From: Candidatus Omnitrophota bacterium
GTDB taxonomy: Bacteria > Omnitrophota > Gorgyraeia > Gygaellales > Profunditerraquicolaceae
Assembly (NCBI GenBank): GCA_041662125.1
Contig: JBAZTA010000002.1
Location: 76,154-140,153, forward strand
DNA length: 64,000 nucleotides
Direction of reading: 5' to 3'
Position numbers and translations under genes: made by a program. The notes beneath the pieces were generated by a model. The model was given only the letters and a program-made list of their open reading frames with translations, was not told the origin of the DNA and made no database searches. Below, in pieces: positions 39,001 through 60,000 of the stretch (position 1 is its first letter; each line of letters opens with the position of its first letter).

Positions 39001-42000
39001 GAATCTCTTGCGTTACTTGGCTGAAAAGGTAGAGGTTGGTAAGTTACAACCAGGATCACTTTTCGGTCTTTCATATTATAGCCGCAAACTAACTGATCAG
39101 GCTGGAAGGAAATTCGTGAAGGATTGTTATTCGTGGGTTCTGGCAGAGTATCCGTTTTTGACATCGGAAACTTTCTTCCTCTTACCTGAGTCAGACAGCC
39201 ACTGGAGGCTCACCCCTGCTCCGGGAAGAGGAAATGATTACCCGGCTTATGTGCAAGAATATACCTCTACATTACTCAGGGCACTATTTACTCCTGTCTG
39301 GAGGATAGCCGCCTCTGCGCTGGTTTATGAAGGTGCTTGCACTGAGCAAGACTCTCGTCTAATATCCGGGTCGCGTCGAAGTGCGTCGCCGATGGTAGAA
39401 CAAAGGAAAATTATGATTGAAGGCCGGGAATTATTCCCTTTAATCGCTCCTACGGCCATTACACATTCTTTTGATGAATCGTGTATCGTTGTACTCTCAC
39501 CTGAAGTAGCCAGCGAATTGACCGTAAGATCAAAAACTCAATTTCTAATCTTTCTTCCGGGTGGCCTGGAATTTCTGAGGAAAGCCGCTACGTTAGATAA
39601 TGCACGGAGAATGTTGCATGATGCCGTTTTTGTTGAAAATAGCGGATTTGCAACATTGGGCCAAGCAGGAAGTTTGCAGACTCTCCCTGAAGCACTGCGA
39701 ATTCCTTTTGTTACCTTGACCCACGAGAAACTATCCGTTCGAGGACAGACAAGAAAATTTCTTATCGTGGTTAATACCAGTAAAGCTCAGGCAAAAGAAG
39801 ACGCGATAATGCTGGCGGGCGTTGGAATTCATTTCGCAAAAACCCCTTTCTTAAAGCTCGAAATAAGAAATAAAGATATGATGACCAATAATGAGGAAAT
39901 ATTTAATACCGTCAAGACATTGGTTGAGCTTAACAGGGGCATTAGGATTATTCCTCTTATTGGAAAAGAAATCCCCCGGGATATGCTGGAGGAATTGTTG
40001 GATATCGTCCAAGTTATTGCTTTGCGTATTGAATTGACAAAACCGGGTTCCCGCAGAGGTTTAGGGCTTTCTGAAGAAGAAGATAAAGTGAGGGCGGTTA
40101 TCGCCTTAGCAAGAACAATAAGGCCGGGCATTCAATTGATCGGTGAATGTGGTATTGGTGAACCTGAACATGTGCGTCAAGTATTGAAAATGGGATGTAA
40201 TGGTGTTTTAGTCAATAATGCTATTACTCAATCCGCAGACCCTATAGCGGCAGCCGTTGCTTTTAGAGATGCGGTTAGTATTGGCACCAATAAACGTGAC
40301 GGTTTTATTGCTTCCGCTTCTGCGCTGGTGGTTTGGCCGGAAGTATTCATCAGCCGCAATGAGATACTCTCAAAACCGATAATTTTCTGCAATCAGTACA
40401 CTCTTGATACGGTTAATCCGGATTCTAAAGAATTTGTCGTAGCTTCAGGTTATGCCGGAACGGATATTATTAATCTTTGGTCAGCGACTCATTTTACCCG
40501 GGCATATTTAATCAATGATTTTGAAGTCAGAATAAAGAAGTTGATCGCCCATCGCGAAAATTGGAGCAGACTCGATAAAAATTCGCTGTATTTCTGGAAT
40601 AAATATCGCCTCGGGTATAATCCTACCTCAGATTTCTATGAAGAACGGGAATTCTTTATTATCCAGGAACTTCAAGCTATGGGGTTGGCAAAAGATAATA
40701 TACGTGATATTTATTTGGATGAAAAAGGAAGGGTTGTATTGTCTTTTACGTTATTTGAGGGTGATCACGAAAGAAAGATCGTCTTTGTTAAAGATAATAT
40801 TGTTTCTCCAAGCGATAAGTTGGATAAGGAGCTGTTTGGTAAGCTAGATGCGTATTATCAAAAAGCCTGCGAAGATTCTGGCAGGGATTATCAACGATAT
40901 CTGCCGATTGTTACGCAGTGGATCAAGCCGCTGGGCTTCTTGATCATTAACCCTTATCGTCAAATAGGCGGCCATATAAATCTCTTGGCTCTTTTAGAGG
41001 TCGATTTTATGAAGAAAACCGATGCAATGGGGAAATTTCTTTCATTGCTGGAAAGCAAGATAGGAATAGATATAGGTATGTTATTAAATGAATCTCCCGG
41101 GCATGGGTGGGCTACAGAGGCGTGGCAAAAACATCCCGCTTTTTTCCCACTTTTGAAGAAAGGCAAAAGTTTAAAGCGGACAGAAATTGCCTTTGATGAA
41201 GATATCCTTTTTCCTGTAGATTATATAGCCCGGAAATCTTTGTTTGGCCATAAAAATAACAGGTTATTGGCGACTGTTAATGGAGAGGTCGTGGTTGTTT
41301 ATTCGGAACCAAATGATGACGGTTATTCTGGCAGCGATAATTATGCGGTTACGCGTAATTATGAAGAATATTCCACAGTCAAGCAGATATCAGAGGGCTT
41401 GAATTTAGTTGAAAAGAGTTTAAAAATAGCGGAAGACGCGGTTAATGCTTCTGATTATGCGGTCATTAATTCCGCAGGTATACGCATGCAACATAGTTTT
41501 TATGTGTTCTCGGGTTTAAGATTAGATGACGAGCGTTTAGAGAAACAATTTATTAAAGTCCGCCAACATTTTCTTCAGAACGATAGGGTATATGAGATCT
41601 TTGTGGCTGAAGGAGTAAGCGGGAAAGATCTGCTGGGGAGCCTGCTTTTTATGGAGCGCCTTTGGGATAGGGACACCAGAATTGCAAAGAACCGATTCTT
41701 TGATGAACGCTCAAGGATTGTAGTAAGGAAAAAACTGCAGGATCTGTTCGTCGTGCTTTACAGAAATGAGATTTCCTCTGACAAGTTCTTTTCTTCTTCT
41801 TCGATTACTTCTCACTTTAACAGGAATGATAACGAAGCTTCACTTAAGACATGGAAAATAGAGCAAATACCATTCTCTCTATGGCAGGTTATAAAGCATC
41901 AAAGAGGAGGAATAAGTACTTGTTTGTTGATGTTCGGGTTATTCTTATCGATTTTTTATGCCGTGGCTGCATATTTTGAAAGTTATAATGTTCTCTTTGT

Positions 42001-45000
42001 CCCTCTTTTTATAGTATGGGCGTGTCGTTTCTATTGGAAAAAGTTACCTGTTCTCGTTAAGAGCTTCCACGAAAAATATATTACGCCATTTAATCCGCAA
42101 ACGGATATATTTTTGTGCGACAGGAAACAAAAGATGATCTTCCGGTATCAAGGCCCGGCGTATTTTATTCACGGGTTTACTATAGAAGGCAACCATACAC
42201 TCCAAAATGGATCATTAAAAGGACTGATCTTAGACTTGGTGCGGGAACACACGTTACCTAATATACTTGTCATTTCATGCAATCCGCAGGGAGGTTTGCT
42301 GGGAGAGGTGGTAATTCCTGCTATTCATGCGCGGTCTCAGATGTCTGTTCTTTTTGATATCTGGAGTTTACTGGATCATAAAGGTTGGAGAAAAGGCACA
42401 ATTTTTTATTCAAACGACGGGTTTTCGTTCGTGAATACGCGGGGAGAAGAAATGCCGTTAGAGGATGCTTTGGAAAAAGGGGTTTTAGGCAGTGCATCTT
42501 CAGCTCTTTCCCGGCCGGGTGGCTATCCGGATCAAAGGCTGGCTTTAGTGAAAGAGTATTTGCAGGAACATGGGTTTATTACGGTACTTATTTATACGAA
42601 GCTGTTGCGGGAGAATCTTGGAATTCCAAAGGTAAACGCGAATCAAAGGCGTTTGGATTTAAAGCAGTTAGCACGGGGAAACAAAAACATCGTTGTTGAA
42701 AAGGGTCAAGACGGTAGAAAAGTTTACCGGTTGCTTCCTGAAAGCGCAGCTTCTGCGTTAGTCTCTTGGGGACAGGTGCCCGATTGGCTTTGCAGACGCT
42801 ACAGCTTTGGACTAGTACCTGGTGTGAAGGCAAGTTCCCCTGTTGAATATTCGCAGGTTAAGGCGTTAGCAGAGACAATATGGGAAGCAAAGATAGCGTA
42901 TGGAGAATATACGGCCATGGCGACTTGTCGTGATACCGGAGTCGGATCTCAAGATTCTTCAACCTGGCCAGTTAATTTCCGGGACGAGGTAATTCTGGAT
43001 AAATGCAAGAAGGAATTTATCAGCAGTATTTTTCTTTTAGCCAACGCATATAAAGATCTTTCCATTGAACAGTTATTTGATTATGTGATGAAAGTTATTG
43101 AGACGGATGAGGTAATAATCAGTTACGGTTTTATTAGAGATGAATCAGAAGGAGATGTTCAAATATATTGCCAGGATAGGCAGACAGCCAAAGTCCCGTA
43201 TATAAATCCGTTGATATTGACTGCAGAGATCGGGAAAAGCCAAGAAGTTTCTCAAAAACCAGAAAGATTACGTTGTGCAAGACCAAACTGGTATGATATT
43301 TCAGAAATGGAAAAGGCCTTGGTATTGATACAAGGCAAATACAAATTATGGTTAATCCTTAATCCTCATGCGTTACGTTGCGAAAAAGATAATGCAGTTT
43401 TAGGTTTTTATAATGATTTCCTGGAAGAATCAGCATCAGTAAGGTCTTTCGCGAGCTTTTGGCCCAGGCTTTATGGTGCTTTATTTATCCCTTCTGCTGA
43501 CCCGAAAACACATGAGGTAAACCGGGTGTCGTTAGCGTTAAATGCTGCTGTTAAACTAATAGATGCAGGCCTTGTTTTAAATAATGATAAGATTTTGGTT
43601 TTGGCTGAGTCTTTAAGTACAGAGTATGCGTTAGGAAAATTAAGTATTCTTTTGCAAAAAGCTTTGATCGTTCCAGGCCCGGAAGGAGTTATCCAGGAGT
43701 TAATTTTTAAATACCGCACCGCAAGAATAATAAAACAATTCAGTGATTGGCAAAAGGTTTGTAGTGAGCAAGAGATTCCCCTTGAACAAAAGATCGCCTG
43801 GCTCACCGTTAACATGAGAGACGCGATAATAGTAGGGTACGATTTTACGGCTCTGGATATACATGAAATTTACGAGAAAACATTATTTAAAGAAACAAGC
43901 ACTGATTTTATAGAAAGAGCGCAGGTGGAGGCTGAAATTTTTGAAGAAATTTACCGGGTAAGTTCTTCTACTCTTTCTGCGCAGAAAAAGATAATCAAAA
44001 ATATTTATAGAAGTTCTCGTTCGCTTATGACGAGCATAGCTGATCATATAAAGCTTCAGTATTATTCCGGCGTAAAGCCGTTATACATTGTTTCTGTCGG
44101 CGGTGGAGCGGGTGTGGGAAAGACTACATTCGTTGACCGGTTAAAGAGGGCATTAAACCGAAGAGGACTAAAAGTAGCAATTATACGGGAAGACTCTTTT
44201 ATTAAGACGAAAGCAGCTAGAAAGATCATTGGCACAGAATGGGATGCGTATCATATCCGGTTAGCTTCATTAAATACAGCAATGTTTCAGATTGTTAATG
44301 GTAAAACCAAAATATTCATAGAATGTTACGTGCGTAGATATCCGGATAAGTATATTCAGAGAGAGCTTGATCTGCGTGGTGTCCAAGTCATTATTTTAGA
44401 TGGCTTGCATGTGGTATCAGATGAAAACCGGTTAGGGAACCTTGCCGTATACGCGGATGTGCCTATTTTTATGGATACAGCAGTGGACGTTTTGAAAGCT
44501 TGGAGATTTCAGCAGGAGTGGGCAAAACCATATCCTCGGACATTAGAAGAAATGGAGCGGCATTGGAATGAAGGTATTCTACCTGACCTCTATGGTAATA
44601 TTTTACCTTCAATGAAAAATGCAAGATTGATTATTCATGTTAATGAAATGCGACTGATGAGGCTTGAAGCGCAAGCTGGAATTGTCACTCCCGCTTCCTC
44701 GTCACCGGCGCAGGCTTTGTTAGGGCCGGATTATACCTGGGTGGAGCGTCAAAGAAATATAGCTGATCTAGCGGCCGGTTCAGTAGGAACCATTCGCCTC
44801 AAGAATTCGGCGGTCGAGAACATTAGTATAGCGATAGAAGAGATCCAAAGGATAGGGTCACTCTCTGCGTACTATAAACTCGTGTTTCTTAACGCGGCTG
44901 ATGAGAGCGAGATCGGATTCTTGTATTTTGTAGATTTCCTTGCAGACTGTAAGTTAAGGATCTTAAGATTCTATTTAAATCAATCCATGAGAAGCAACAA

Positions 45001-48000
45001 CCTTATTTATCTTATGGTCAATGTTTTGATGGGTGAACTTATTGCGCGAAGGAATAGTTTTGAAGTGATCCCTTGCGCCTTAAAAGCGATCCCTGTTTTA
45101 ACTGAGGTTTTCCGTAAATTCGGGCTTGAATATCGTGAGTCTGAAGATAGGGTTGTATTAGATAGCGATGTTGGAGACTGGAAGCTTTATTTCAGGCGGA
45201 TCAGCCCCGTGGTTACAAAGTTAGAAGATTATTATAAAAGCGCAATACATGAGCCTGCAGGTAAAGCTTCTGGCCCTCAAGGTTCTTCTCCTCTCCAGTC
45301 AGATAATCTTACCTCTGGACCAAGTGTATTTATAGATATTGCGTCGTTAGAGATCCGCACTGAGAAATATTTGCTGACGTTTAAACTCGATTATGGTGAA
45401 AGATACCGTATTTATAAAGACGGCCGGGCCGCGGGAAGTTTTACTTTGGAATTTACCCGCGAATCGCTGAATATTTATAATATTGATATATTCCCGAATA
45501 TGCAGCGAGAGGGGATAGCTAAGGTTATATTACTTAAATTGTTTGCTTCTTGCATTGAGGCAGAGAGGCATCTTACTATTTATGATGCCGGCTGCGCGGA
45601 CAGGATCTATAACCTGGTAAAATATTATTTTTCCGAGTATCCCAAACAGATCAAGATCAAAGGCAAAACTTCTGATTACCGGGAAGTAGCATTTGATGAG
45701 GCTAAAGAACTTATAACGCCGGTATCGTCTATTATCATCAGTATCTTCCCGCGCGCCAAAGAATCAGCTTCCGCAATTACGGCCCAGAGTTTTCTCGATA
45801 GCTATCCTTTGGCTGGAAATCCTGTTCATACGTATCCGTTGTTCGTGCCTCATCAGGATGGATTGAGGTATTCTTATAACCTTAATCGGGAGGCACATGT
45901 TAGTTTAGAAAGCAATAAATATATGCTGCGGGGTTGTCTTGATGGGGCCGCGCAGGCGGTATTAGCAGGCCTTTTTAACGATTACCTTATCTCCATTAGG
46001 TCATACCTGCAAAATGCTCCTCCGGAGAAATTAATAGTAGCCGTTACCAATAGAGAATCAAACCTGCAGTTCCTTTCTTCGCGCCTGTTCGTCTCTATCG
46101 CCTCAATATATGGCAGCTCTCTCGTGTATGTCCATCCCTCTCTTTTTAGCCTTGCTTCGATCATCCAGGAAGATATTATCCGCCATATGGCCGGCTACGC
46201 GCGCGGTTTAAGTGTCCGGGAGGTTATCGGATCAACAGTCGCTTACTTTACGATACGTCCACAAAAAGCAAAACTTTTCTTAGAAACGGTTAAAAAAGAA
46301 GGGCTATTATTAGATGAATCTTATGGAAAATTAATAAAACAGGCAGGGGATATTGACAATCGACGGGCATCTTCATCTCTGGTTAGGCAAGATTCTTTCA
46401 TTCATCAACTCAACATAGATAGTACTGATGTGCCGTTTGTAAAAGAGGCGTTGGTTCATTTAATCAGGGATTACGGGCACAAAGCATCTACCCTGAGTGT
46501 TTTGGCAAAAGCGATAAGGAGCATTAAAGAAGGAAGAGGGGGTATCCCTTTTAGAATAAAGGATGCCTATTATGTGGCGAAAATGATCTTGAACTTTCAA
46601 GATGCGCTTTTTAATCCTTCTTATACGTGTAATATTTATAATCCTTTTAAGGGGTTTGCCGCAATTATTCCGTCATTGCCATTTTCTGATGAAGATAGCT
46701 TGGTATTTGCCGTATTTCCTCAAGAACAGCTTGCTTTCAGGAATAATACCGAACCAGAGAAACAGCATGTGCCAGCTGCCCTCTATTACATTGGATATCA
46801 AAATAACGCCAATAACCTCATCGTGCATACTATGCAGAGTGACCTTTTTGGCAGTTTGAAAGACGGCTGGAGAAAACGGTGTAAATTCTGGCCTGAAATG
46901 GGGATTTCATTATTGGAAAGCTATGCGCAAGAAAGAAAAATGCATGGTATTTTTATTGCGCCTGCCGCGTATCAAAAGGAAAAATGGCTCAATATTCCTG
47001 AGCATTTGGCCAAGAGGATTTATGATGAAGCTCCGTATAAGCAGGGATACGTTCCCGTCTCTCTTTATCCACAGTGTATCATAGAAACGGTTGTTTTGCG
47101 TCAGGCATGGTATAAGACAATCCTCTCGGGTTTGAGTTCTTCTCCTTTAAATAATGGTATTCATGAGACATCTGAATTAAAACACTTGAGGGTGCTCCTT
47201 GGGGGAACGTTCTCTGATAAGCGAGTAATTGATGATGCAATACGGCTTATGGGAGACAACGGCTTACGTGAACAAGGGATACTTTTGCTTCAGAAAAAGT
47301 TATGGCAGCAGAAGGGCCGTGGTTTTGAGGAAAGTGATCCTGAGTTACGTAAGTATATCTGGGAAAAGCTTATGACGGTTTCTTTCAGAGAAGGAGGTTT
47401 TATTAAGATCGTCAAGAGAAGTAGTTTGCCTTTTACCATAACCCGGCAATTGTTTAAAGAGCTGGGCCACGCGGTTATAGCCGGAACAATGCCTCAAGGA
47501 GGTTCTCTTTCTTTGGGCGGATACCTTTTTAAATTTACGCAGTATGGCGGCGTGGATTATGAATTAGAAGTGGAAGCGGGACTTTTGAAGCGCATATTCT
47601 TCATGAATGATTATTCTCTGGTAGAGTTCCTTTCGGTTCTTGACCGCTGCACAGGGGAAATTATTGATCTGCATTGCGGGAAGATCCCCCAAGGGCGTTT
47701 CAGCGGCTATCAAGATGCGGTTATAGAGGGATATTTGGGAAGAGATGGAATATTGGATTTGGCCGGCAGGCGTTGGGCTAAATTCGGCAGTGAATTCGCC
47801 TATGAAAAGGCCAGGCTTTATGTTAAAGGCGGTTTAGTGAGTCGCTGTCAATCAATGGAGTCAGAGTTTGATGAAACGTTTTCATTGATCTGGGATGACA
47901 GGAAGGATGTTTATATTGATTGCTTTTGGGCTCGATTACCTCAGCAGAAATTGAACGTTTTGCAATCGTATCACCAGATACATCTTTTTAGGTTAAGTAA

Positions 48001-51000
48001 GGATGGTTCGTTGTTATTAGGAGGAGAGGAATGGATTAATTTTGGCGAGGAATATTCTTACCGCTACGCGGATATCTTTGATATACGTAATCCAAGCGGG
48101 GAAAAAGCGTTTATATTCGGGGCTCGGGTTTGGGAAGGTGCTGATATGAAAGTTTCTAAAAGCCTCTCCGGAGTTTACGCGCTTCAAGAAGGCAGCCGTC
48201 CGCAAGATTTTATCAAAGGAGAATTATTGGCTGTTTTTGAGAAATGGAGCGATAAAAAGATGGCTCAACTGCCTACGCAGAATTACATCATTTCTCCAAG
48301 GACATTAACTGTTAACGCAGCGTTGGAATTGCAGGGGTTCGTTGCATCTTTCTCAGATGAATTTTTCTCTTGTGCTGAAGTTGAGGTTATGGTTATGGGA
48401 GGAGAAAAACGGCTGGTAAGGTTCATACGTGACAATCGTGGCGTACCGGTATTTGATAGTGAAAATAAACCGCTCGTGATAGATCTGTCTTTAGGCATTA
48501 AGGCACAGTGTTTTGAAAAAGCCAAGGCATATCAGGATAAAAGGCGCAGCACGGTACAGTCGCGTTTTAATGAGGCGGTTGGGTATTATAATAATGGAGA
48601 TGTGGAAAATACACGACAACTGCTTTCTCAAATAAATAGATCTTTTAGTCAGAGAAGAATTCTGATCGATGGAGAACGATCTCTTGTTAGGCAATCAAAG
48701 GCGTTTATTCATTGGCTGGAAACTATCCGTCTTCTGCGCCAAAAACTTTCTTGTTTGAAAGGTGAAGGCGTAACTGTTTTAAGGGAATTATTGCCTATTC
48801 TTGAACTGCGGTATTTTGAGCCGCACGCCGCGGAATATTTACAGGAAATAGAGCGTAGGATCATGGATATGGTTCAGGAGAAAGCAATGGAGGGCCTTTA
48901 TTACCGGCAGGCAATAAAGGATATCCGTCATGCCGTTACCGTAGAAGCATTGCATGCCTTGTTTTTGGATAATCTGAAAGCCTCAGGCCGGGAAGAAATT
49001 GAATTGTTACGGAGTGAAAGGCGAAAAGAGATAATCGAGCAAGAGGTTGAAGGAAAGAGCATGGTTGATTTACAGCGGATGCTTTGGAAGGAAGACGAGC
49101 TGCATCAGGATTTTGCCTTGCCTCAGGATGATCATGAATCGCGCCTCTACGTGTGGAGAAAGCTTTTAGCTCTGTCATTTGGCAAAGATACGCCCGTTCA
49201 ATATCTTAACCGGCAGGATTCCTCGAGAGCGGTTAATCGCGGAGCGTTACGCTCATTAGGCCATGTGGTGATCCGCGGAGTCTTGAAAGGCAACTTTGCA
49301 CTGCGTATTGGTGAATATAGCTTTGGCTTCCGGGGATACGCAGATTCCGCCTATGAGCTTGAAGTGGATAATGGCATCCTGCGGCAGATATTTTTCTTTA
49401 AAGACCATACGCTGTTTGAATTTTTTCCTATTATAGACAACCATACGGGTGAGGTCATTGATGTTCACCGAGGTACGATCGTTACCAATAAATTTATGCG
49501 CTACAACGATATTACGACCTTAACGTATCTGGGAGTCAATGGGCAGCTTCGTATCGGAGGCAGGCGGCCGAATATCCTGGGTGATCGTAAAAAAGGGATT
49601 TGGACTTGGGCATCTTTTGGAGAAGAATACAAATATCAAAAAGTGAAGCTCGTGATCAAAGACGGATTAATATCATGGTGTACTTCGATGGAGTCCGGCC
49701 TGGATGAACCGTTTATTTTGATCAAAGATAAACGCCAGGGGAAGTTTATTTCCTGCATCTGGGGCCGTTTCCTTGAAGAGCATTTAAATCAGTTGCGGCC
49801 ATGGCATGAGATCCATCAGAAACGCTTGACTAAAAGAGGGTTGTTGATCATGGCCAATAAGGTATGGATGGATTTTGGCGCGGATTGCGGATATGGGTTT
49901 GCCTGTGTGGATGGTATTTTAAATCCCTCTCACAAGAAAGCTTTTTTAGTGAGAGCTTACGCGAATAAAAAAGACGGGTCTTTGGTGCATAAGAAATTGA
50001 ATAAGCTTTATGCCCTCGATAATGGATTTAGTCCGGATGATTTCAAACCGGGTGAATTAATTGAAGTATTTGAGCGATGGAGTGAGAATTTAGAGGCATT
50101 AGTGTCTGTCTTTCTTCAGGGTAACTTTATTATTCAGGGCCTTACGACTGATGCCAAGGGCCGTTTTTGGTTCCGCGATTTTGATATTACCGCAGAGCGC
50201 CTTCCCGAAGTAGCAGTCGAAATTTTGGCTTTAGATAACCAGGTCGCACTTATCCGTTACCGTAATGATTCATGCGGTAGGCCTGTTTACGGTATTGATG
50301 GCAGGCTTTTTGTCGAGATTGACCTGCGGGAAGGTAGTCTCAGGTCGCAGCTCTGGCAAAAATCCCAAGCATATCAGTCGGTTCATATGCAGCGCTTAGC
50401 TGCTCGATACCGCCAGGCAGTTGCGTTGGTAAGGCAAAATGACTATCCCGGCGCGCTTCATTATTTGCATGTTTTAAAGAGCAGGCTTGAAACTGAGAAG
50501 ATCCGTGTTTCAGGTGAAAAGACTATTGCCCGCAGGGCTGATACGATCCGTGCTTTGATAGTCGAAGTTAATTCGCTGAGGCAAAAAATCAGGCGAATGG
50601 ATGAGAAAACGGCAAAGTTACTCGAAGAAGATCTTGCGGGAGTCATTCCGCAATACCTGGACGGCGGCCGCGCTGCCATAGGGGATTTACTTTCACGGTT
50701 GCGCAGGATAGAGAGAGGCTTGCGTCAGGAAAGGTTTGCACTGATGAAGCGGGTAAGAACGGCCTGTATAGAGTTGCTGCATGCGCAATCTTTAGAAGAA
50801 TTGGAAAATATAACGCTCAGCGGTTTTGATGGATCGGCGCTGGAAAAAATATCGCGGGTGAAAGAAATTAGACGTAAACGACTTCTCTCTTCCCGAGAAA
50901 AAGAACTTGTTCGAAACTTGAGGGAAGATCTGCGCCAGGCAAATGCGCTTGCGTCACTGGAGCAGCTGAGTATTGACAATGCTATTGGAGAGCCCCGTCG

Positions 51001-54000
51001 AGAGAAATTGAGCCGTCTTATTGAAGCAAAAAGGCGTGAGCTTCTGCTGAAAGGTTTAAAGCAGAAGATATTTGGCGCCCGCAGTGAATCTGAACTGGAA
51101 GATATCATTGATGACATTAATAAAGAAACGTATCCGGAGGCTATCCTGTATCAGCAGAAGCAATCCTTACGGATTAAACAATGGAGGCAGCGGCGTAAAT
51201 ATCCTGATTTAGAATCTACGAAAGCGGCATATTATAGCCGCGAGCCCGAAGAACGGACTCCTGAAGCGCTTAAGCGAAAGCTTTCTGAAGGAGGAGACTG
51301 GTGCCTTTATGATGCTGCTTGTAGGTATGGGATCCTTGAGAGGCAGTCCCAACAGGATAAAGAGCCAATCGAATTAACCGGCCATCAAAAGTTCATGCTC
51401 AAGATTTGGGAGTATTCACAAGAGAATACCTTGGATAGACAGGAAACTGATGTGTATGGTGTGAGTAACGTTGAGCTTTGGTATATGATGGTTGAAGATA
51501 ATGACGCACTGGCTCAGGAAAAGCTTCTTCAGGCATTTATGCCGAAGGCGTTTAGCTTGATGAAGAAGTTTGGCGGTGTTGATCCGCTTAACCGGATCAC
51601 ATCGGCTGAACAGGCTTTTTACAGTGATGACCTTATGGGTACGGCAATTAATACAATATTAGAGGCCCTGAGAAAATGGAACCCTGATCTATGCGTTAAT
51701 TTGGAGGATTATGTTGAACAGGAAATGCTCGTTGCCGTGCGGCAGGAAAGGAACCATCCGTTAACCAATACGCATATGACCATGTCTTTGTCTAATCCGT
51801 ATGGCAATAAGTGCGATCCAGGTGATAGGGGAGGTACTAACTTTTCTGGCAGCCGATACAAGCAATTGGAAGACAACCTTTCTGAAAATAGTGTTCCAGA
51901 TCCGGCAGAGCGTTTTGTGCGCATGAAAGAATTTCTTGAAGCGGTTGTTGCACGCGATTATCCGATTCCTGAAACTTGGGAACGAGATGAATTGTTAGAG
52001 CTTTTGTTCAGCAGGCGGGAGAAAGAAACCTTTAAAGATGATCTGCGGGATTATATAACAAGGGAAAAGCTTATGCTTTCTTCTTTGGAGCCGTTTTCAG
52101 TCTGGATGGTAGGAAGTATGGGATACCTCGGCCTGGCGCGTAAAGGAATAAGTGATGTCAATCTCTTGGTATTGACAGAAGCATCTGGGGATAAGATTTA
52201 CAAAGCTGCTCAGTATATGCAGTATGCGCTGGGAGGAACGCTTGAGGTTCGTGAAGGTCAAGACGTGACGTTATCTGTCGGCAAAAACGGTGATTTCAGT
52301 AATTTACTTTTTGAGGCTCCTGGTTTTGTTGATTTTATGCAGAGCCATTGCCTTGGCAGCGAGTTTCGCGGGTATCTTTCGGTAGATATAGTGGGAGTTA
52401 ATGGTTTTGATCAGCCGCTAAAACGTTCTTTGCAGCGGTCTTATTTACATATCGCGGAGAACCTTTATAAGCTTGGTATTAACGCTGTAGGGGTTATGGA
52501 GTCTCCTGTGGGCTACAGCCATAAAGTAGTTAAGAAAATACTTTCGGCAGTCTCGCATGATGCTCAAGAGTATGCCTATTTCGTCCATGAATTCCAGATG
52601 CGTTTCTTTGCCAAGCAGGTAAGAAAAGTATTGCGAGAACTTAATGACCAGGGGATGACTTGCCTACGGGCAAGTTCTCCTGTTTCTGCTGAACATCCCA
52701 CATCCGTATTTTACCAAAAGATCCGTCAATTCAATAAAAATCTGCGTTTGATCGTTGAGCGTGAGTTTTATACGCGTGATGATATTGAAAGGATTTTTAA
52801 TGATTCGTTTGCCGGCTGCTCAATGAGCGAGATGGCAGCTGTTGTATATTTAGTCAAAGCATTGATACTGCGATTAAGGAGTGGCAAGAGGGGCGGGCCA
52901 ATGGATCTTCAATTTATTTTATCAATGGACCAGTTTGTGGCTGAAGGCGTATTGACGCGCGAGGAGCGTTGGCAATTAAGGAATATGCGTGATTATGGGT
53001 TCATTGATAACATTTTTACGCGTTTACAGCGGCGTATACTTATTGAAGCTGAATTTATCCAACTGCCCCGTCATTCGGATGTTATGCGTTTCTCCCGGCT
53101 TGATAGAAAAAGAGCGCTCGATATTGAAAAATCTCTTAAAGCTGATTTAGCCGGTTCTCGCATCCTTTGGGTAGATGATCTGCCGCTTATCTGGGAGATC
53201 ACTGAAGCGCGCACGCAGCCGTATTTTGCGGTGATAATCAAGCCAAACGGCATAATTTCTCGTATCGTCATAAAATCACGGTTTTGTGAGATTGAAGAGC
53301 ACCATATTTCAGGAATAGTGGGGAATCAGTTGCTTGAAACAATTCAGGCGCCGAGTGTCTGGATGCAAGAGGGGGCGCGCTATGCTTATATTCGAGAGGT
53401 TGTCGGTGTAGATATTCTGGAATTCATTTGGGACTTAACGAGGCTGGATGAAGAAATACAGCGAAGATTTTTCTATGGGTTAGGATTGGCTATGGCTGAA
53501 GCGCATATTTTAGGCATGCACGACCGCCGGCACAACTTAGTGATCAATGTAGACAAATTGCGCAAATACCCGACAGAAGAATTAATCATTCTTGAAAAAA
53601 GGCCGGTTATTAATATTGACAGGGAAAGTATGCTCCATCCTGATTATCTCAAGAGAAATCCTCAGGATGATCATTATGAAGCCGCGCATGTGTATTCGTC
53701 GCTTGCTCATCCTGCGCCGCAGGTGTTCCGTAAGCATTTTGAGTGCTATCTTCAGGGTTTTGGCGATGCTTATAAGAACCATACGGAATATTTTAGGTTA
53801 GGGCAGACAGATAATCAAAAGCGCATTATTGATTTAGCGGGTACCCATGCATTGCCTGTTATTGAGCGCTTGAGGCAGGATACCAGCGGTATTGAATCAT
53901 TGGTTGATACTATACGCACGCAAATCATAAAGTTGTTAAACATTAAGCCAGGCTCTAGTTCTCCGATTCAGGGTGCTCTGTCTGTGAACGATCAGCTTTT

Positions 54001-57000
54001 GTCGAAATACCGCAGATCGCTTATACGCGTGATTGATAAAGAAATAAGCTTGAAAGATTTTCGCGCTCAGGAACGGCTTGATGGAATCGGCTCTGAAAGA
54101 AAATATATCGGGCCCATCGTAAATCAGTGGTTGGGCGTATCCGGAATGCTCTATAGCTTGCGCGATAATGTTGTTCCTGTATATGTAGATAAAATTGCTT
54201 CAGAGCGGGATGTATTGACTCCGGATGAGGCGCAATCGATCATTGTCAAAAAGATCCGGCAGCAGGCAGCTCAAAGAAAGCCAGCCATCATCAGGATAAC
54301 CAGCAGGCCCGGGGCAGATGAGGCGGAAATTATTGCCGACTTAAAGGATATTTTTTCCGGGGAGCGTGTGTTGTGGTATCAACCTCAGGAGAGGATTTTT
54401 ACGCGTCTTCAGGAAGAACTCCGCATCCCGGATGAGTTTAAATTTGAAGTCGCCGCGGTAGAGAGAGTAATAGCGCGGGCAAAAGATGATTTTGATATTA
54501 TTTTTATCCATCATCCTTATGCCTCAAGAGGCTACTATGGCTCGTTATACGATATGACTACGCCATTGCAGGCGGATATAAAGATTTTTCTGGAGTGCGA
54601 TGAGATCGAACGCCTTCAGCGTATTAAGGATTATCATCTTGAAATCGGGGAGATAGGTTTGTTAAATAAATTCTATCGCTATACGGTTGATCAGGACCGC
54701 CGGGATGCTGATTATGTAGTAGACACCTCACTCTATCCAATATCGTTAAGCGATATGTACACCTGTGAGAGACAATGGCAGATTGTTCATGAATTAAAGA
54801 GGGGAGATATTATCGAAAGGTTAGGCCGTGCGGAAATGTTCCAGCAGGATGATTTTGCTTTTATATTTGAGAATATTCGTCAGATTGCCGCTGAGTTTGG
54901 ATTGTTGCATGCATTTAATTCCGCGGTCAAAGATGAAGCGGCGATGCGTTTAAGCGAAGATGAAATAAAACAAGTCCGGTTGGGGTTAGCAAGAGAAGAA
55001 AAGCAAAGGTTCATGACGCAAAAGGAAAAGAAAATAATCGCCGAAGGAATTAAAAATTGGCTGGAAAAGTTAAATATTCATACCGTGCTCTTAGAATATG
55101 GCGTTATGGATTACTATTTTTCTCTGATCAGCACTCTTGGTGTCCGGGGCAAAGCTGTTACCTGTTATAGCGACGCCGATATTCGGCTTGTCGTTAAACT
55201 GCCCGTAACAGCGAAAGCTTGCCTGAAGGATAAAATTTCTGAGAAACTATTACATGATGACCCCGAAGCGCATTTCGCGGCATACCTTGCAGAGAGGCTC
55301 TATGGATTATCGCACCCGGGCAGCAGGTTCGGCTATTATGTTTACTTCCCTCTTAAACAAACAGGCCTTTTACATGCTTTGGCAATCACTGATTTGGAAA
55401 TTCATATTGTCCCGTTACAATTGCCTTTAGAAAGGAACCCGCAAGAAAAACAGTTAGAGCGTATTTTTGCATTGCTTTTTGGGTTGGAATACCACGGCCT
55501 GGAAATATTCGCTTCCGGTAAGAATACCTCCAGAGAAATGGTTGAAGAAATCCGCACCTGCCTGTCTGCGCAGGGCCTTGAAGAAAGGTTTATCGATTTT
55601 ATATTTACTGAAATCGATGTATTAAAAGAAAAATTTGTGAAGCATTCAAGATTATTAGAAATGTCTGGTTCGCCTGTTAGATCCCGATGTGAATTAAACG
55701 AAGCAAATATCCATTATGCCCGCGCTTTAGGCGCTCAAAGCGACAATGGCTTGAGCGTGCTTACCAAGGGCCAAGTCAATAGGAAACAACGCAGGTACTC
55801 AAACCTTTTTACCCGGGCGGCGTTAGACGATTATTATGCTGAACGCGAAGATGAAGATTTTGACTGGGATAAGATATTTGGTGAAGGTTTAGCCGCAACA
55901 GAGGATGCTTGCGCTGCTTCTCTTAAAAAGCTTTACGCGCGGTGGGAAGAGATCAGCGACCCTCCTGACCTGGATGATTGGGAAGAGTCGGATACTGATA
56001 AGATAGGCCTTCTGCGTGACCACATAAGAAAGAAAACAGGCAAAGAAGTTATCAGGTTAGATTTTAGCAGTTATCCGGATTTTTCTTACGATACTATGGA
56101 AGCGGTCAATCAGGCCATTCCCGCTGTTAAGCAGGGGCATGCTCTTGAGATCCTCTGTAACACAGTGAGCCAGTTTGATACTTTTGCTCAGTTAGTTGAT
56201 GCACAGTTCGCGCAGCAATTGAATTTTACTCCTACCGGCCAATCAAAGAATATGTCCTGCTACGGCGATGGGTTTAACTACGGGGAAATACATTTTGCTT
56301 TGCGAGACCTTTTACATAATGCCTTGGTGCATGGGAATCATTTTAAGCTTTCTTTGCCTGTTTTTTTCTTGTTCGATCTGCAGGAGCCGGAACTATCCGT
56401 ATTTGACCTGGCTTTAGGGGAAACTCCTGTTGATGTTAAACAAAGAGCAGAACGCGCGCAAATAAGCGGGCAAGGCAGGTTTATCGATTCTATCCTCGAT
56501 TTCTATAATTTTGGTTTTTACGGCTCTCTTATCAGGGATAGCCGTACAGAAAAAACCATCGGCAGACAGGTGTCGGTTTTAATGCGTAAAGATAAGCATT
56601 TAGACCCGGCGTTGCGTTCTGTGCAATTCGAATTACAGCAAGCTTCGCAGGGATTACAGGTATGGGTGATCAATGGTAAAGAGCGTCAAGAGTTAGTTGT
56701 CAATAACAGGGTTGTTGATGCCGGTGCCCAGACGGTTAAATTGATGCAATATTTGCTGGTAAGCCCTGCGTTTGATTCCCGGACGCAAGAAGGCCTGACA
56801 GGCAGGCAGCGGATCGACTGGTGGAGCTGGTTCTTTGAGAAATATTGCCGTGGTAACTCTGCCCCCTGGAAAATAGAACAAGTCCATAAAGATGCCTCTG
56901 ATGAACTGGTGAAGTTTTGCTTAACTGACCCGCAGACTATGATCCGCCTTTATTTGAGTTCTTGCACGATCGATTATGGTAAAGATTGTATCGAATGGGA

Positions 57001-60000
57001 GTATGTAATTAAGGACCGGATCTTTACGCGCACAAACCTTGAATATTACTTCCTGCTTTATACATTTATGGGGGACCTTTCTTATGCGCAAGCCACTTTC
57101 ATTACGTCCCGCGTTGAGGAGAATATTCAGGATAATGATGACGTGATCGCGTTATACAACCTTCAGGAACAAGGCAAGGCTGTTTTCTTGCGGCAGGATA
57201 AGTTGTTTAACTATTTTGCGTTTAAAACTCATGAAACCGTAGAGGTCAAGGAAATAGATCTGGGGGATAAAAGAGTCATTTTGGTCAAAGATCCCCAGGG
57301 AAGGCTTTATGGACAGTTGGGCATTGATGCCCATATCAAATTGGCCCTTCAGCAAAGCCGGGTTACCTGGGATGTTACGGAGGAAGAATCCCGGTTTTTG
57401 GCAGAGGCGATACAAGGCGTATACCCGCCAGCGGTGCTAGTACCTTTGGAATTAGGCGTTGGGAAAAATGATTATATCAGGTACATAAAGAAAGATATGG
57501 AGAGTTTTATCGAGCAAGGCAAGGGGACCTGGTGTTTCCCCGATCATCTTTTGGATATCGCGCAGCGGTTCGGCTTGTATCCATCTGACCTGATAAAAGA
57601 CGCCTTCGTGAATAAGAATTTAAGCGAGCACACGCAAATAAGATATTATACAAAACTCATCGAGAATATATTTAGAAAGCAATTCCCTATCTACAACAGT
57701 TGTTCTATTTTATATGATGAGTCTCTGGCAGGATTATTCAAACTCAAAAGCGCGGCTGATTTTGAGCAGTTAGCGAAAGATATGTGGGATAAAACCGATT
57801 GTATGCAGGTCTATTTGAACGCAGTGATGATGCCTCATGGAGCATCTTTTGAGATCGGCTCTTTGCATCAGTTCATGAGCCGGGTCATCCTTCCTGAGCT
57901 AAGCCGTATACGCCCGCAGGGTGAGCCGTTGCGCATGCTCTGTTTGGGCTGCGAAGAAGGTGCTGATGCGTATATGCTAGCCATGGAATTATTAGAAAGC
58001 GGATGGGATACAAAAGCGCGGCCTGTTGAGATCACGGGCGTTGGCATTAACCGTTTTGCGATTGAAATTGCGCAAGCCGGGCATTTTAGGCGAAATAATA
58101 TCGATAAGCTTTCCGAGGAAACAGTGAATAAGTATTTTGCTTTGGACGCAGAAACCGGATTGTATGTAATAAATAGCCGTTTGAAAGCAATGGTGAGTTT
58201 TCAAACGGCAAACTTCTTAGAAGCGCAAATCCGCAAACTCTTGGGGGGCTTTGATTTTATTCTGCTTAATCAAATGATCGATTGCTTTTCGCATGAGGCC
58301 CATATGCCAGTGGAGCGGGATATTTTAAGAGAAATGCTTTCCCCGGGAGGATTTTATACCACTCACTATTCGCCCTCGCGTGTTGTCCCGGAAGTTGAGG
58401 TTAGTATGTATCATTTAACAGATAATCCTTTCAGGGAAAGTGTTGTTCAGAAAATTTGTTCTGAGTCAAGAATTTATAACGAATATATAAAAAGTTCTTC
58501 TCCTTTGACGAGTGATTTAAAAGGCCTGACTATTCTTGTGACTGCCGGGCCAAATCAGGAGCGTATCCCTGGAAGGCCGGAGTATATTACAAATTTCTCG
58601 TCAGGCAAACAAGGATTTGCCATCGCTGCTGCCGCAAAGGCGCGAGGCGCGCGCGTTATCCTTATCGCTGGGCCTACGTATTTAGAAACTCCTGATAACG
58701 TTATAAGGGTCGATGTGGTCACTGCCCTGGAAATGAAAGAAGCGGTAGCAAAATACCTGCGCTTTGCCGATGTTTACATTTCAGCCGCGGCAGTCGCCGA
58801 TTACCGCCCGGTAAAGCTCGAGAAAGAAGGCAGGCGCGATTTTACCGTAACACTCCACAATAATCCCGATATTTTAAAATGGGTCGGCAGCCTTAAGAAA
58901 GAAAAAAGTGAGTTTTCATCTCTGGTGGTGGTTGGTTTTGCCGCAGAGACTGTGGAGCCGGGAGAAATGGTGGAAGAGGCGCGCCGTAAATTTATCGCCA
59001 AGAACATGGATTTTATTTGCGCCAATAGAGTTGGGCAGGAGGGAAGCGGATTTCGCAGTGAAAACAATAAAGTAGTAATAATCAGGGAGAATAAAGACGA
59101 TGATCATTGTTTGGAAGCGTCAAAATCCGATGTCGCCAATAAGATATTAGATGCAGTTTTAGATGTCCGTGAAAGGCGTTCGCTTGGATCTGTTATCAGG
59201 GCTGTGGAGTTGGAAGGAGAGCTTCAGGAACAAAGCCAAGCGCTGCGGTCTACCCAGCAGGCGCGGTATCCGCCGTTTGCGGGCATCGCGGGAAAAACGA
59301 TTTTGATTTCTGCCGGATCGACAGAAGAATCCATTGACGGGGTCAGGATCGTCAGCCGTGCGGTAAAGTTCGATTTACCGTACGCGATCGCTGCAATAGC
59401 TCGTATAAGTGGGGCTAAGGTGGTCCTGATAAGCGGACCAACTCATACGCCTCCTCCCGAAGGTGTCAGATTTATTCAAGTAGCTACTGCCCAAGAGATG
59501 GCAAGACAGATAAGAAAATACCTCAAGCAAGCGGATATTTTCATCAATTTAGCCCGCCCGCCTTTTATCAAACCACGGCAGCAGCAATCCCAAAAGATCA
59601 AGAAACAAGGCAAGGAACTGACACAATGGTATTTTACCTTAAACGATGGGATCTCTCGTTTAGGTGAACGAAGCAGGCATTTAAATAGGATTTTGGTTGA
59701 AGACGGATATGAGTCAGTTGATTTAAGCGAAGCGCTCTTTTTTATCAGGGCTGCGATAGCAAAAGTGCTATTTCTCGCCCAGCCTCTTTCTTTATGCGCC
59801 GCGGAAGCTCCGCAAAGGAGTTTTGAGGAATATCGGGCTATCGGAGTTTTTGTGGTGAACAGCCATGGCTTGAGAATAAACTTTTCGCCTATCGAACAGG
59901 CTTTGAGTAAAGTAAATGATTATCTTTGTGAAAAGGGCCGCTTGGCATTAGTCAGGAATGCGTTGCGTGCGCAGGGTATCCAGGCGGAAAAAATAGATGA

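What the first reader, a model, noticed from the sequence alone, without database searches (positions are those of the whole stretch)
47465..51100. A 1.8 kb tandem duplication containing a novel conserved domain is present, with a third copy 36 kb upstream.
Units beginning at 47465 and 49259 (offset 1794 nt, 598 aa) align along their whole length. Each holds a roughly 280 aa domain with the signature GH-x-VI-x-G ... Y-E-L-E-V ... G-h-L-+-x-I-F-F ... EF ... TGE-x-ID-x-H-x-G ... IGG-x-RP ... MES-x-x-DE ... W-x-x-FG ... GEL-x-x-VFE-x-WS, followed by a charged coiled-coil tail. A third, more diverged copy of the domain alone sits at 11027-11515. I do not recognise this domain, so it may be a new family. 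Its invariant His, Glu and Asp positions hint at a metal-binding or catalytic site.
Basis: seen in the sequence. Interest (0 to 1): 0.65.

Follow-up and report, generated by a model that had tools for sequence, protein, structure and literature searches.

The report
New beta-repeat domain in giant gene
Three old copies of an unannotated, all-beta repeat domain of about 420 residues sit inside a giant bacterial gene that fills the whole window. The domain looks like a non-enzymatic binding or scaffold module that often comes just before sigma-factor-like segments, so it is a real new domain family of modest importance.

Summary
Protein segments aa 15804-16178 and 16402-16792 align at an offset of 598 residues (36% identity, E 6e-81), and a third copy lies at aa 3657-3956. 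The duplication shows only at protein level; DNA similarity is gone. The whole 64 kb window is one stop-free reading frame (at least 21,333 codons), a multi-enzyme giant gene of the kind described in Omnitrophota.

The domain is larger than reported, about 400-440 aa. It is built from four internal beta repeats of about 85-90 aa. AlphaFold gives pLDDT 89 with 22 sequences.

No match was found in Pfam, NCBIfam, PDB sequences, or Foldseek against PDB and BFVD. Only 73 of 1.84 billion representative proteins match. Nearly all that carry an organism name come from Omnitrophota, and most are very long proteins.

No His, Asp or Glu is invariant across the family, so the catalytic or metal-site idea is not supported. 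All three copies are under purifying selection against an ortholog (dN/dS 0.17-0.19).

About 38% of assessable arrays are followed within 450 aa by a sigma-70-like segment, and this includes copy 2 in the window.

Best reading: a non-catalytic binding or scaffold repeat module that forms a cassette with a helical linker and a sigma-like domain. The function itself remains inferred.

The parts
2..64000 (+). Single stop-free reading frame (21,333 codons, open at both ends): a fragment of a giant multi-domain gene that holds all features below
   Evidence: frame +2 has 0 stops; the other five frames have 848-1855; about 20 Pfam families, all in this frame; dN/dS 0.14-0.34 against the ortholog in every segment of 270 or more codons; one 46-codon stretch of tail 1 gave 0.95 at very low divergence.
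47261..48535 (+). Copy 1 of the beta-repeat domain (aa 15754-16178): N-terminal helical lead-in plus four beta repeats of about 90 aa
   Evidence: local HMM E 3e-205; single-repeat hits at aa 15829-15901, 15908-15987, 15993-16043; 81% aa identity to the ortholog, dN/dS 0.19
48536..49054 (+). Tail 1 (aa 16179-16351): charged, helix-prone linker that opens with a TPR-like hairpin
   Evidence: 33% charged, 55% helix formers; weak similarity to tail 2, E 9e-5; 135 aa of it absent in ortholog L001
49055..50377 (+). Copy 2 of the beta-repeat domain (aa 16352-16792)
   Evidence: E 4e-215; AlphaFold2 model of aa 16382-16792, pLDDT 89.1, pTM 0.85, four repeated eight-strand-plus-helix patterns; 86% identity to the ortholog, dN/dS 0.17
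50378..51190 (+). Tail 2 (aa 16793-17063): charged helical linker
   Evidence: 35% charged, 61% helix formers; only a non-significant TPR_6 hit, E 0.14
51191..52756 (+). Module X (aa 17064-17585). It follows the beta domain in the window and also in P0002 and P0032. It starts with a degenerate sigma-70 region-2-like segment (aa ~17159-17250, nt 51476-51751), followed by an unassigned part carrying a GSxG...SDxN motif
   Evidence: BLAST to P0002 E 4e-52 and to P0032 E 3e-47, in both directly after their beta domains; module X profile hits PDB sigma factors, best 1l0o_C sigma-F at E 1.9e-4; 12 of 16 hits are sigma factors; no Pfam hit for the window sequence alone
10805..12112 (+). Copy 3 of the beta-repeat domain (aa 3602-4037), without the helical tail and with no sigma-like segment downstream
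   Evidence: E 2e-188; P0003 aligns from aa 3599; 84% identity to ortholog L002, dN/dS 0.19; no sigma-like hit within 450 aa

Best explanation
The finding is three anciently diverged copies of a previously unannotated, non-catalytic, all-beta repeat domain. Each copy is about 400-440 aa: a short helical lead-in plus four repeats of about 85-90 aa, each predicted as an eight-strand meander plus a short helix.

The copies lie inside a giant multi-domain protein of more than 21,333 aa, of the 'multi-enzyme' type described for Omnitrophota.

Shown:
- The domain is real and each copy is conserved under purifying selection.
- It is modular. Relatives carry arrays of different lengths, with up to 19 single-repeat matches in one protein.
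- It lacks invariant polar residues.
- In a large fraction of cases it sits 70-370 aa upstream of a sigma-70-like segment, joined to it by a charged or TPR-like helical linker. In the window this holds for the copy 1 / copy 2 pair and module X.

Inferred:
- It acts as a binding or scaffolding ('input' or docking) module rather than an enzyme.
- The cassette of beta array, helical linker and sigma-like domain is a functional unit. In it the beta array binds a partner or ligand and positions, tethers or regulates the sigma-like part.
- The tandem pair arose by module duplication inside the giant gene long before the split from the nearest sequenced relative.
For: - Repeat and copies.
- Internal repeat of about 89 aa, clean in P0072, with 307 repeat matches in the family.
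- Confident all-beta model with four repeated secondary-structure patterns.
- No invariant His, Asp or Glu; the conserved positions are Gly, Leu and Phe.
- Purifying selection on all three copies (dN/dS 0.17-0.19).
- Both tandem copies and copy 3 are kept in the ortholog.
- Family restricted to 73 representatives. Of the 30 looked up, all 11 that carry an organism name are Omnitrophota (9, including Candidatus Gorgyraea atricola) or 'Endomicrobiales' MAGs (2).
- Sigma association: 18 of 47 assessable arrays have a sigma-like segment 70-370 aa downstream. Of 21 sigma-like hits outside the window, 17 fall in that zone against 19% expected, P = 2e-9.
- Independent confirmation that these segments are sigma-70-like: Pfam Sigma70_r2 in 8 of 20 and r4 or r4_2 in 8 of 20; TIGR02937 in P0004 at E 7e-16; PDB sigma factors for module X; source names of 'sigma-70 family' for P0004, P0006 and P0010.
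- No TM-like segment lies between the beta array and the sigma-like segment in any of these cases.
Against: - No experiment and no structural homolog ties the domain to any binding activity. 'Binding or scaffold' rests mainly on the absence of catalytic signatures and on repeat-number variability.
- 29 of 47 arrays, including copy 3 in the window, have no sigma-like segment nearby.
- Stand-alone homologs (P0003, P0015) and P0072 (fused to an SF1 helicase) show other contexts.
- The window's own sigma-like segment is too degenerate for Pfam and was missed by a subfamily HMM built without it.
- The cluster representatives are partly homologous giant proteins. The positional association is therefore partly shared ancestry, and the P value overstates independence.
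- 16 of 41 Met-started family proteins begin with a signal-peptide-like segment. If cleaved or oriented N-in, this would place the domain and the 'sigma' outside the cytoplasm, which is hard to square with a transcription role.
Confidence: 0.55

Rival explanations
1. One reading: the domain is a new enzyme or metal-binding domain whose conserved His, Glu and Asp residues form an active site.
For: Within the three window copies, H40, H108, H224, E73, E183, D122 and D187 are invariant. Some stay fairly frequent across the family: E73 80%, D98 77%, D375 80%, E359 77%. The giant protein is otherwise full of enzyme domains.
Against: No polar residue is invariant among 30 near-full-length members. 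The three histidines are present in only 60-67% and are absent from clean-repeat relatives such as P0072. The conserved polar positions recur at equivalent places in successive repeats, as expected for structural positions in strands and turns. The number of repeats varies widely between proteins, which is unusual for an active-site-bearing fold. No similarity to any enzyme family was found.
Confidence: 0.08
2. The domain is an extracytoplasmic adhesion or carbohydrate-binding repeat. This is what has been proposed for periodic beta-rich regions of other Omnitrophota giant proteins, and it would serve attachment to host or prey cells.
For: It is an all-beta domain with variable repeat number. 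Of 41 Met-started family proteins, 16 begin with a signal-peptide-like hydrophobic segment and have no TM-like segment before the domain. West-Roberts et al. (10.1101/2023.11.21.568195) interpret periodic beta structures in giant proteins as CBM-like adhesion modules.
Against: In the window the copies lie in a stretch free of TM-like segments between aa 13992 and 19908. That stretch also holds PRK, CheR and CoaB-type domains that need cytoplasmic nucleotides or SAM. The domain is contiguous with sigma-70-like segments and, in P0072, with an SF1 helicase. Stand-alone P0003 and P0015 have no signal peptide. No CBM, Ig or lectin similarity was found by sequence or Foldseek.
Confidence: 0.17
3. 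The domain is an inert structural spacer with no specific partner. It would be one of many duplicated filler modules that accumulate in giant genes, and its position next to sigma-like segments would reflect only common descent of a few giant-gene lineages.
For: The giant gene contains several other ancient internal duplications. Its ortholog shows indels and block rearrangements. The published catalogue reports that 65% of long Omnitrophota proteins repeat at least one Pfam (10.64898/2026.06.07.730766). The family representatives are not independent.
Against: Purifying selection on the domains is as strong as on flanking enzyme-like regions (dN/dS 0.17-0.19). Sequence motifs are retained between copies that diverged beyond synonymous saturation. 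The domain also occurs as small stand-alone genes in genomes with ordinary gene sizes (P0003 at 588 aa, P0015 at 556 aa). The cassette recurs in proteins that share nothing else detectable with the window.
Confidence: 0.15

Closest known systems
Omnitrophota giant 'multi-enzyme metabolic cluster' proteins (Nielsen & Lui 2026 preprint, 10.64898/2026.06.07.730766; West-Roberts et al. 2023 preprint, 10.1101/2023.11.21.568195)
   Same: A stop-free ORF of more than 21 k codons. Many different Pfam families tile one polypeptide (FBPase_glpX, HD, M50, PHP, HAD, methyltransferases, ThiG, PRK, CheR, DFP, Rce1-like, PIG-L, PolyA_pol). It has scattered hydrophobic TM-like segments, ancient domain repeats with no nucleotide-level tandem repeat, and large Pfam-dark stretches. 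Homologs of the new domain that carry an organism name are Omnitrophota, including Candidatus Gorgyraea.
   Different: The nearest genome record is labelled 'uncultured Planctomycetales bacterium', so phylum membership of the source is not settled. Neither paper mentions this beta-repeat domain or sigma-like modules; a word search for 'sigma' found 0 occurrences in both.
Sigma-70 / ECF sigma factors with fused regulatory extensions (general knowledge of ECF groups with N- or C-terminal extensions and membrane-tethered sigma/anti-sigma fusions)
   Same: A sigma-70 region 2 (and often region 4) module is covalently linked to a non-sigma domain through a helical linker. In several relatives (P0004, P0007, P0022) TM-like segments follow the sigma part.
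   Different: The partner domain here is a 400-aa four-repeat beta array with no similarity to known anti-sigma, FecR, SnoaL-like or TPR extensions. The cassette is embedded in polypeptides of thousands of residues. The window's sigma-like segment lacks the aromatic region 2.3/2.4 residues (by inspection) and is below Pfam detection, so it may not be a working sigma factor.
Generic beta-repeat binding modules (beta-propeller blades, MORN/YD hairpin repeats, Ig/CBM arrays)
   Same: All-beta, tandemly repeated, variable copy number, conservation dominated by Gly and hydrophobic positions. Many of the non-significant Foldseek hits are propeller or hairpin-repeat proteins, such as teneurin, Bap1, the Ika4 design, neuraminidase and MORN proteins.
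   Different: No hit is significant (E at least 0.01, TM no higher than 0.18). The unit is about 89 aa with eight strands and a short helix. Its two halves are not similar to each other (hhalign probability 1% or less), so it is not a pair of four-stranded blades detectable by sequence. No Pfam repeat family matches.

Membership tests
Giant multi-enzyme proteins of Omnitrophota (class 1 of Nielsen & Lui 2026) | Single ORF of at least 10,000 aa | tested here: met
   21,333 codons without a stop, open at both window ends.
Giant multi-enzyme proteins of Omnitrophota (class 1 of Nielsen & Lui 2026) | Many distinct Pfam families tile the polypeptide and none dominates by copy number | tested here: met
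   about 20 different families, each present once or twice.
Giant multi-enzyme proteins of Omnitrophota (class 1 of Nielsen & Lui 2026) | [quoted passage not shown] | tested here: inconclusive
   17 hydrophobic 19-residue windows by a Kyte-Doolittle scan only. The N-terminus is outside the window and no dedicated TM predictor was available.
Giant multi-enzyme proteins of Omnitrophota (class 1 of Nielsen & Lui 2026) | Source organism belongs to phylum Omnitrophota | tested here: inconclusive
   The ortholog-bearing MAG CAZPNW01 is titled 'uncultured Planctomycetales bacterium'. Homologs of the domain with an organism name are Omnitrophota / Candidatus Gorgyraea, plus 2 from Endomicrobiales-labelled MAGs. 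No marker-gene phylogeny was possible.
Sigma-70 family (for the segment downstream of copy 2, aa ~17140-17280) | Recognisable region 2 (core-binding helices 2.1-2.2) | tested here: met
   a profile of module X hits PDB sigma factors (sigma-F 1l0o_C at E 1.9e-4, then RpoH, FliA, SigA, RpoS). The window sequence alone gets no Pfam hit, so the match depends on the profile.
Sigma-70 family (for the segment downstream of copy 2, aa ~17140-17280) | Region 4 helix-turn-helix for -35 recognition | tested here: not met
   no Sigma70_r4 or r4_2 hit for the window segment. 8 of 20 related segments in other proteins do have one.
Sigma-70 family (for the segment downstream of copy 2, aa ~17140-17280) | Binds RNA polymerase core and directs promoter-specific initiation | not testable with these tools
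   Needs biochemistry.
   none invariant among 30 near-full-length members. The histidines are 60-67% conserved; the best conserved columns are Gly, Leu and Phe.
Any curated protein family (Pfam-A, NCBIfam) | Score above the curated threshold, or consistent sub-threshold hits | tested here: not met
   no hits for the three copies; 50 single repeats give only scattered hits from one member each; homologs P0003, P0005, P0006, P0010 and P0012 have no hit over the domain.
Beta-propeller / known solved fold | Significant structural superposition on a solved or predicted structure | tested here: not met

The most novel reading that the evidence does not exclude
The beta array, helical linker and sigma-70-like cassette is a new kind of self-contained regulatory unit built into giant polyproteins. 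In this reading the four-repeat beta domain acts in cis as an anti-sigma-like clamp or as a ligand or partner sensor. The sigma-like module would be released or activated by proteolysis, for which the same polypeptide carries M50 site-2-protease-like and Rce1-like domains. The beta repeat itself would be a fold not yet represented in the PDB.
Probability: 0.12. Interest if true: 0.8.

Novelty: new variant of a known kind. Interest (0 to 1): 0.45.

Why it matters
Giant Omnitrophota-type genes are among the largest known. Much of their sequence has no annotation, and 137 of 916 catalogued long proteins have no database hit at all.

This finding defines one recurring dark-matter module. It gives its boundaries, its internal repeat of about 89 aa, a confident predicted structure and about 70 relatives. 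It also shows that the module is selectively maintained.

The work points to a recurrent cassette that joins the module to sigma-70-like segments. Those segments are not mentioned in the two available papers on these proteins. That gives a concrete hypothesis to test: does the domain dock or regulate a sigma-like module, and are such modules cleaved out of the giant precursor?

The domain is a candidate for a new Pfam family and possibly a new fold. It is not a new biological principle by itself.

Tried and rejected
- The word-index homolog search, with copy 2 alone and with the 22-sequence alignment, returned nothing. The exhaustive HMMER scan found 73 relatives, so those negatives reflect tool sensitivity.
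- AlphaFold with only the three window copies gave pLDDT 53 and was discarded. The 22-sequence alignment gave 89.
- Scans of metagenome contigs, by pattern and by exact 36-mer, found neither relatives nor the source contig.
- The genome-contig scan with the broad alignment failed for lack of conserved stretches. With A2 it found only one MAG.
- Two-blade (half-repeat) substructure was rejected by hhalign.
- AbrB/SpoVT-like, MORN-like and FecR-like resemblances suggested by eye got no support from Pfam scans of 50 repeats.
- A helix-turn-helix in the C-termini of stand-alone P0003 and P0005 was suspected by eye but is not detected by Pfam and is shared only by those two proteins.
- Gene-neighbourhood analysis of stand-alone homologs gave no shared conserved partner. 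One is followed by a Ser/Thr kinase gene, another sits after FBP aldolase and FBPase genes, and BLAST found no links.
- A search with the CoaB/DFP region, run for taxonomy, was uninformative.
- An NTase-like motif in module X has no database support.


Full report
**Context**

The window is not a set of genes. Frame +2 (starting at nt 2) is open for all 21,333 codons, while every other frame has 848-1855 stops.

Pfam scans of the translated frame find about 20 unrelated families, all in this one frame:
- FBPase_glpX, HEAT, HD_4, Peptidase_M50
- PHP (twice), a PrmA-like methyltransferase, HAD
- Sigma70_r2, ThiG, PRK, CheR
- DFP/CoaB (tandem), Rce1-like, PIG-L, PolyA_pol

A hydropathy scan finds 17 TM-like segments.

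This matches the 'multi-enzyme metabolic cluster' class of very long Omnitrophota proteins catalogued by Nielsen & Lui (10.64898/2026.06.07.730766) and the giant genes of West-Roberts et al. (10.1101/2023.11.21.568195).

**Checking the observation**

Chunked self-BLAST of the translation gives these pairs:

| Pair (aa) | Offset | Identity | E-value |
|---|---|---|---|
| 15804-16178 vs 16402-16792 | 598 aa (1794 nt) | 36% | 6e-81 |
| 3657-3956 vs copy 1 and vs copy 2 | about 12,100-12,750 aa | 30-33% | 1e-34 to 4e-34 |
| Tails, 16187-16345 vs 16801-16962 | 614 aa | 22% | 9e-5 |

At DNA level nothing remains. Tandem Repeats Finder and blastn find no repeat. Nucleotide identity over aligned codons is 49% and third-position identity 33%. 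It is an ancient protein-level duplication, not a recent 1.8 kb DNA duplication.

**True extent and anatomy**

Alignment with relatives shows that conservation begins about 30-60 aa before 'GHxVIxG' and runs for about 400-440 aa:
- copy 1: aa 15754-16178
- copy 2: aa 16352-16792
- copy 3: aa 3602-4037

The domain is itself repetitive. Overlapping HMM matches in relatives, and a weak internal hit at offset 82 aa, led to the protein P0072. There the unit is a nearly perfect 89-aa repeat present four times.

A single-repeat HMM finds 307 units in the family and 7 in the window copies. Some relatives carry 14-19 units. The two halves of the unit are not similar to each other.

AlphaFold2 with a 22-sequence alignment gives a confident model of copy 2 (pLDDT 89.1, pTM 0.85). 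It has a helical lead-in and four repeats of the same pattern, about eight short strands plus a short helix. With only the three window copies the model was poor, at pLDDT 53.

**Is it known?**

- Pfam and NCBIfam give no hit for the three copies, for homologs over the domain, or consistently for 50 single repeats.
- Profile searches of PDB sequences give nothing below E = 0.4.
- Foldseek of the confident model gives no significant match. Against PDB the best E is 0.022 with TM no higher than 0.16. Against BFVD the best E is 0.011 with TM no higher than 0.17. Many of the weak hits are propeller or hairpin-repeat proteins.

An exhaustive HMMER scan of 1.84 billion representative proteins finds only 73 relatives, 37 of them at E below 1e-30, and most are very long or truncated proteins. 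I looked up 30 of them. The 11 that carry an organism name are 'Candidatus Omnitrophota/Omnitrophica bacterium' or 'Candidatus Gorgyraea atricola' (9) and 'Endomicrobiales bacterium' MAGs (2). The novelty claim at family level therefore stands.

**Is it functional?**

A species-representative MAG (CAZPNW01, titled 'uncultured Planctomycetales bacterium') carries an ortholog of the giant gene on two contigs that are themselves entirely open frames.

All three copies are present there at 81-86% amino-acid identity. dN/dS is 0.17-0.19, similar to flanking regions. The linker after copy 1 is 135 aa shorter in the ortholog, so the linker tolerates indels while the domains do not.

**Catalytic site?**

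Across 30 near-full-length family members no His, Asp or Glu is invariant:
- H40 67%, H108 63%, H224 60%
- E73 80%, D98 77%, D375 80%

The most conserved columns are Gly, Leu and Phe. Clean-repeat relatives lack the histidines.

**Context that bears on mechanism**

BLAST of all family proteins against the giant protein showed two matches to window aa 17064-17585, which I call module X. P0002 has two tandem domains, as the window does, and P0032 has one. In both, the region directly after the beta domains matches module X (E 4e-52 and 3e-47).

By eye, module X opens with a sigma-70 region 2.2-like motif. A profile of module X hits PDB sigma factors, with sigma-F 1l0o_C at E 1.9e-4 and 12 of 16 listed hits being sigma factors.

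P0004 (Omnitrophota) has the beta domain at aa 26-420 and a TIGR02937 sigma-70/ECF match at aa 600-779 (E 7e-16). NCBI or JGI name P0004, P0006 and P0010 'sigma-70 family' proteins.

The counts for the wider family are as follows.
- A local HMM for the sigma region-2-like segment finds it 70-370 aa downstream of 18 of 47 assessable beta arrays.
- Of 21 such segments outside the window, 17 fall within 450 aa downstream of an array. Only 19% would be expected from sequence length (binomial P = 2e-9). The proteins are not fully independent, so this overstates significance.
- Pfam independently recognises Sigma70_r2 in 8 of 20 of these segments and Sigma70_r4 or r4_2 in 8 of 20.
- No TM-like segment separates array and sigma-like segment in any case. 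In P0004, P0007 and P0022, TM-like segments follow the sigma part.

The window's own sigma-like segment is degenerate. It gets no Pfam hit and no hit from a subfamily HMM built without it.

Other contexts also exist:
- Copy 3 has no sigma-like neighbour.
- P0072 fuses four repeats to an SF1 helicase.
- P0003 and P0015 are stand-alone genes of 556-588 aa in genomes with ordinary gene sizes. P0015 is followed two bases later by a Ser/Thr kinase gene.

**Interpretation**

The best-supported reading is a non-catalytic beta-repeat module that binds or scaffolds. It often forms a cassette of beta array, charged or TPR-like helical linker and sigma-70-like domain. In the window this cassette carries a duplicated beta array.

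What is shown is the anatomy, rarity, selection, lack of catalytic signature and positional association. What is inferred is the binding or regulatory role.

Three rivals were weighed.
- An enzyme or metal site is weakened.
- An extracytoplasmic adhesin or CBM-like repeat is supported by signal-peptide-like N-termini in 16 of 41 Met-started relatives. It is opposed by contiguity with sigma, helicase and nucleotide-dependent domains without intervening TM-like segments.
- An inert spacer is opposed by purifying selection and by the stand-alone genes.

The topology puzzle is unresolved: signal-like N-termini on proteins that carry sigma-like and helicase domains.

**Novelty and score**

The giant-gene context is already described in two preprints. 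The domain family and its cassette with sigma-like modules are not mentioned there or in a literature search.

I rate it a new variant of a known kind: an undescribed repeat-domain family and architecture within a known class of giant proteins. Interest is moderate (0.45). It would be higher if the fold proves new or if the cassette turns out to be a cis-regulated, proteolytically released sigma module.

Noticed in passing
window 2-64000 (+): The entire 64 kb window is a single stop-free reading frame of 21,333 codons, open at both ends, with about 20 unrelated Pfam enzyme or regulatory domains and 17 TM-like hydrophobic segments. It is a fragment of a giant gene.
   Followed up: partly
window ~30149-30781 (aa ~10050-10260): A more complete ECF-like sigma-70 module is embedded in the giant protein (Pfam Sigma70_r2 E 0.0013; a region-4-like 'ERDKDILSRLL...QRVQQIFKRL' by eye). 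No beta-repeat domain lies upstream of it. P0001 has a homologous block (BLAST E 1e-28).
   Followed up: partly
window 18017-19201 vs 38153-39322; 25181-25663 vs 27155-27637; 58502-58789 vs 59270-59554: Other ancient internal duplications lie in the same ORF. A block of about 395 aa containing a PHP domain is 45% identical at an offset of 6,712 aa. An unannotated 160-aa block is 45% identical at an offset of 658 aa. There is also a tandem DFP/CoaB domain at 39% identity.
   Followed up: no
window 16781-17095 (aa 5594-5698) and 60362-60652 (aa 20121-20217): Peptidase_M50 (site-2-protease family, sub-threshold E 1e-4, flanked by strong TM-like segments) and Rce1-like CAAX protease domains occur in the same polypeptide as the sigma-like modules. 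This may bear on self-processing of the giant protein.
   Followed up: no
L001 and L002 (MAG CAZPNW01) vs window aa 3602-18073: The ortholog is colinear around copies 1-2 but lacks 135 aa of linker 1. L002 joins blocks that are 4,000-6,000 aa apart in the window (for example L002 aa 2322-2612 matches window aa 11189-11494, and L002 aa 3471-3681 matches window aa 9586-9686 and 10890-10992). The giant gene therefore evolves by block insertion, deletion or shuffling, unless the contig is misassembled.
   Followed up: partly
family proteins P0008, P0011, P0012, P0021, P0022, P0031, P0036, P0037, P0038, P0041, P0054, P0061, P0067, P0069, P0071, P0072: 16 of 41 Met-started relatives begin with a signal-peptide-like or anchor-like hydrophobic segment. 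Several of them nevertheless carry sigma-70-like or SF1-helicase domains with no TM-like segment in between. The membrane topology of these proteins is unexplained.
   Followed up: partly
L006 10001-12467 (and L007): The stand-alone homolog P0015 (556 aa) is followed two bases later by a 264-aa Ser/Thr protein kinase gene. The pair is inserted between the leuD-like and leuC-like aconitase-family genes.
   Followed up: no
window 52200-52756 (aa ~17400-17585, second half of module X): A motif resembling the minimal nucleotidyltransferase signature (VGSMGYLGLARKGISDVNLLVL) is conserved in P0002, P0032 and the ortholog. It has no support from Pfam or from PDB sequence profiles.
   Followed up: partly
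tool behaviour (vs 25, 51): The word-index protein search returned no hits for this family, even with an alignment that contained fragments of proteins present in the same collection. The exhaustive HMMER scan found 73.
   Followed up: no
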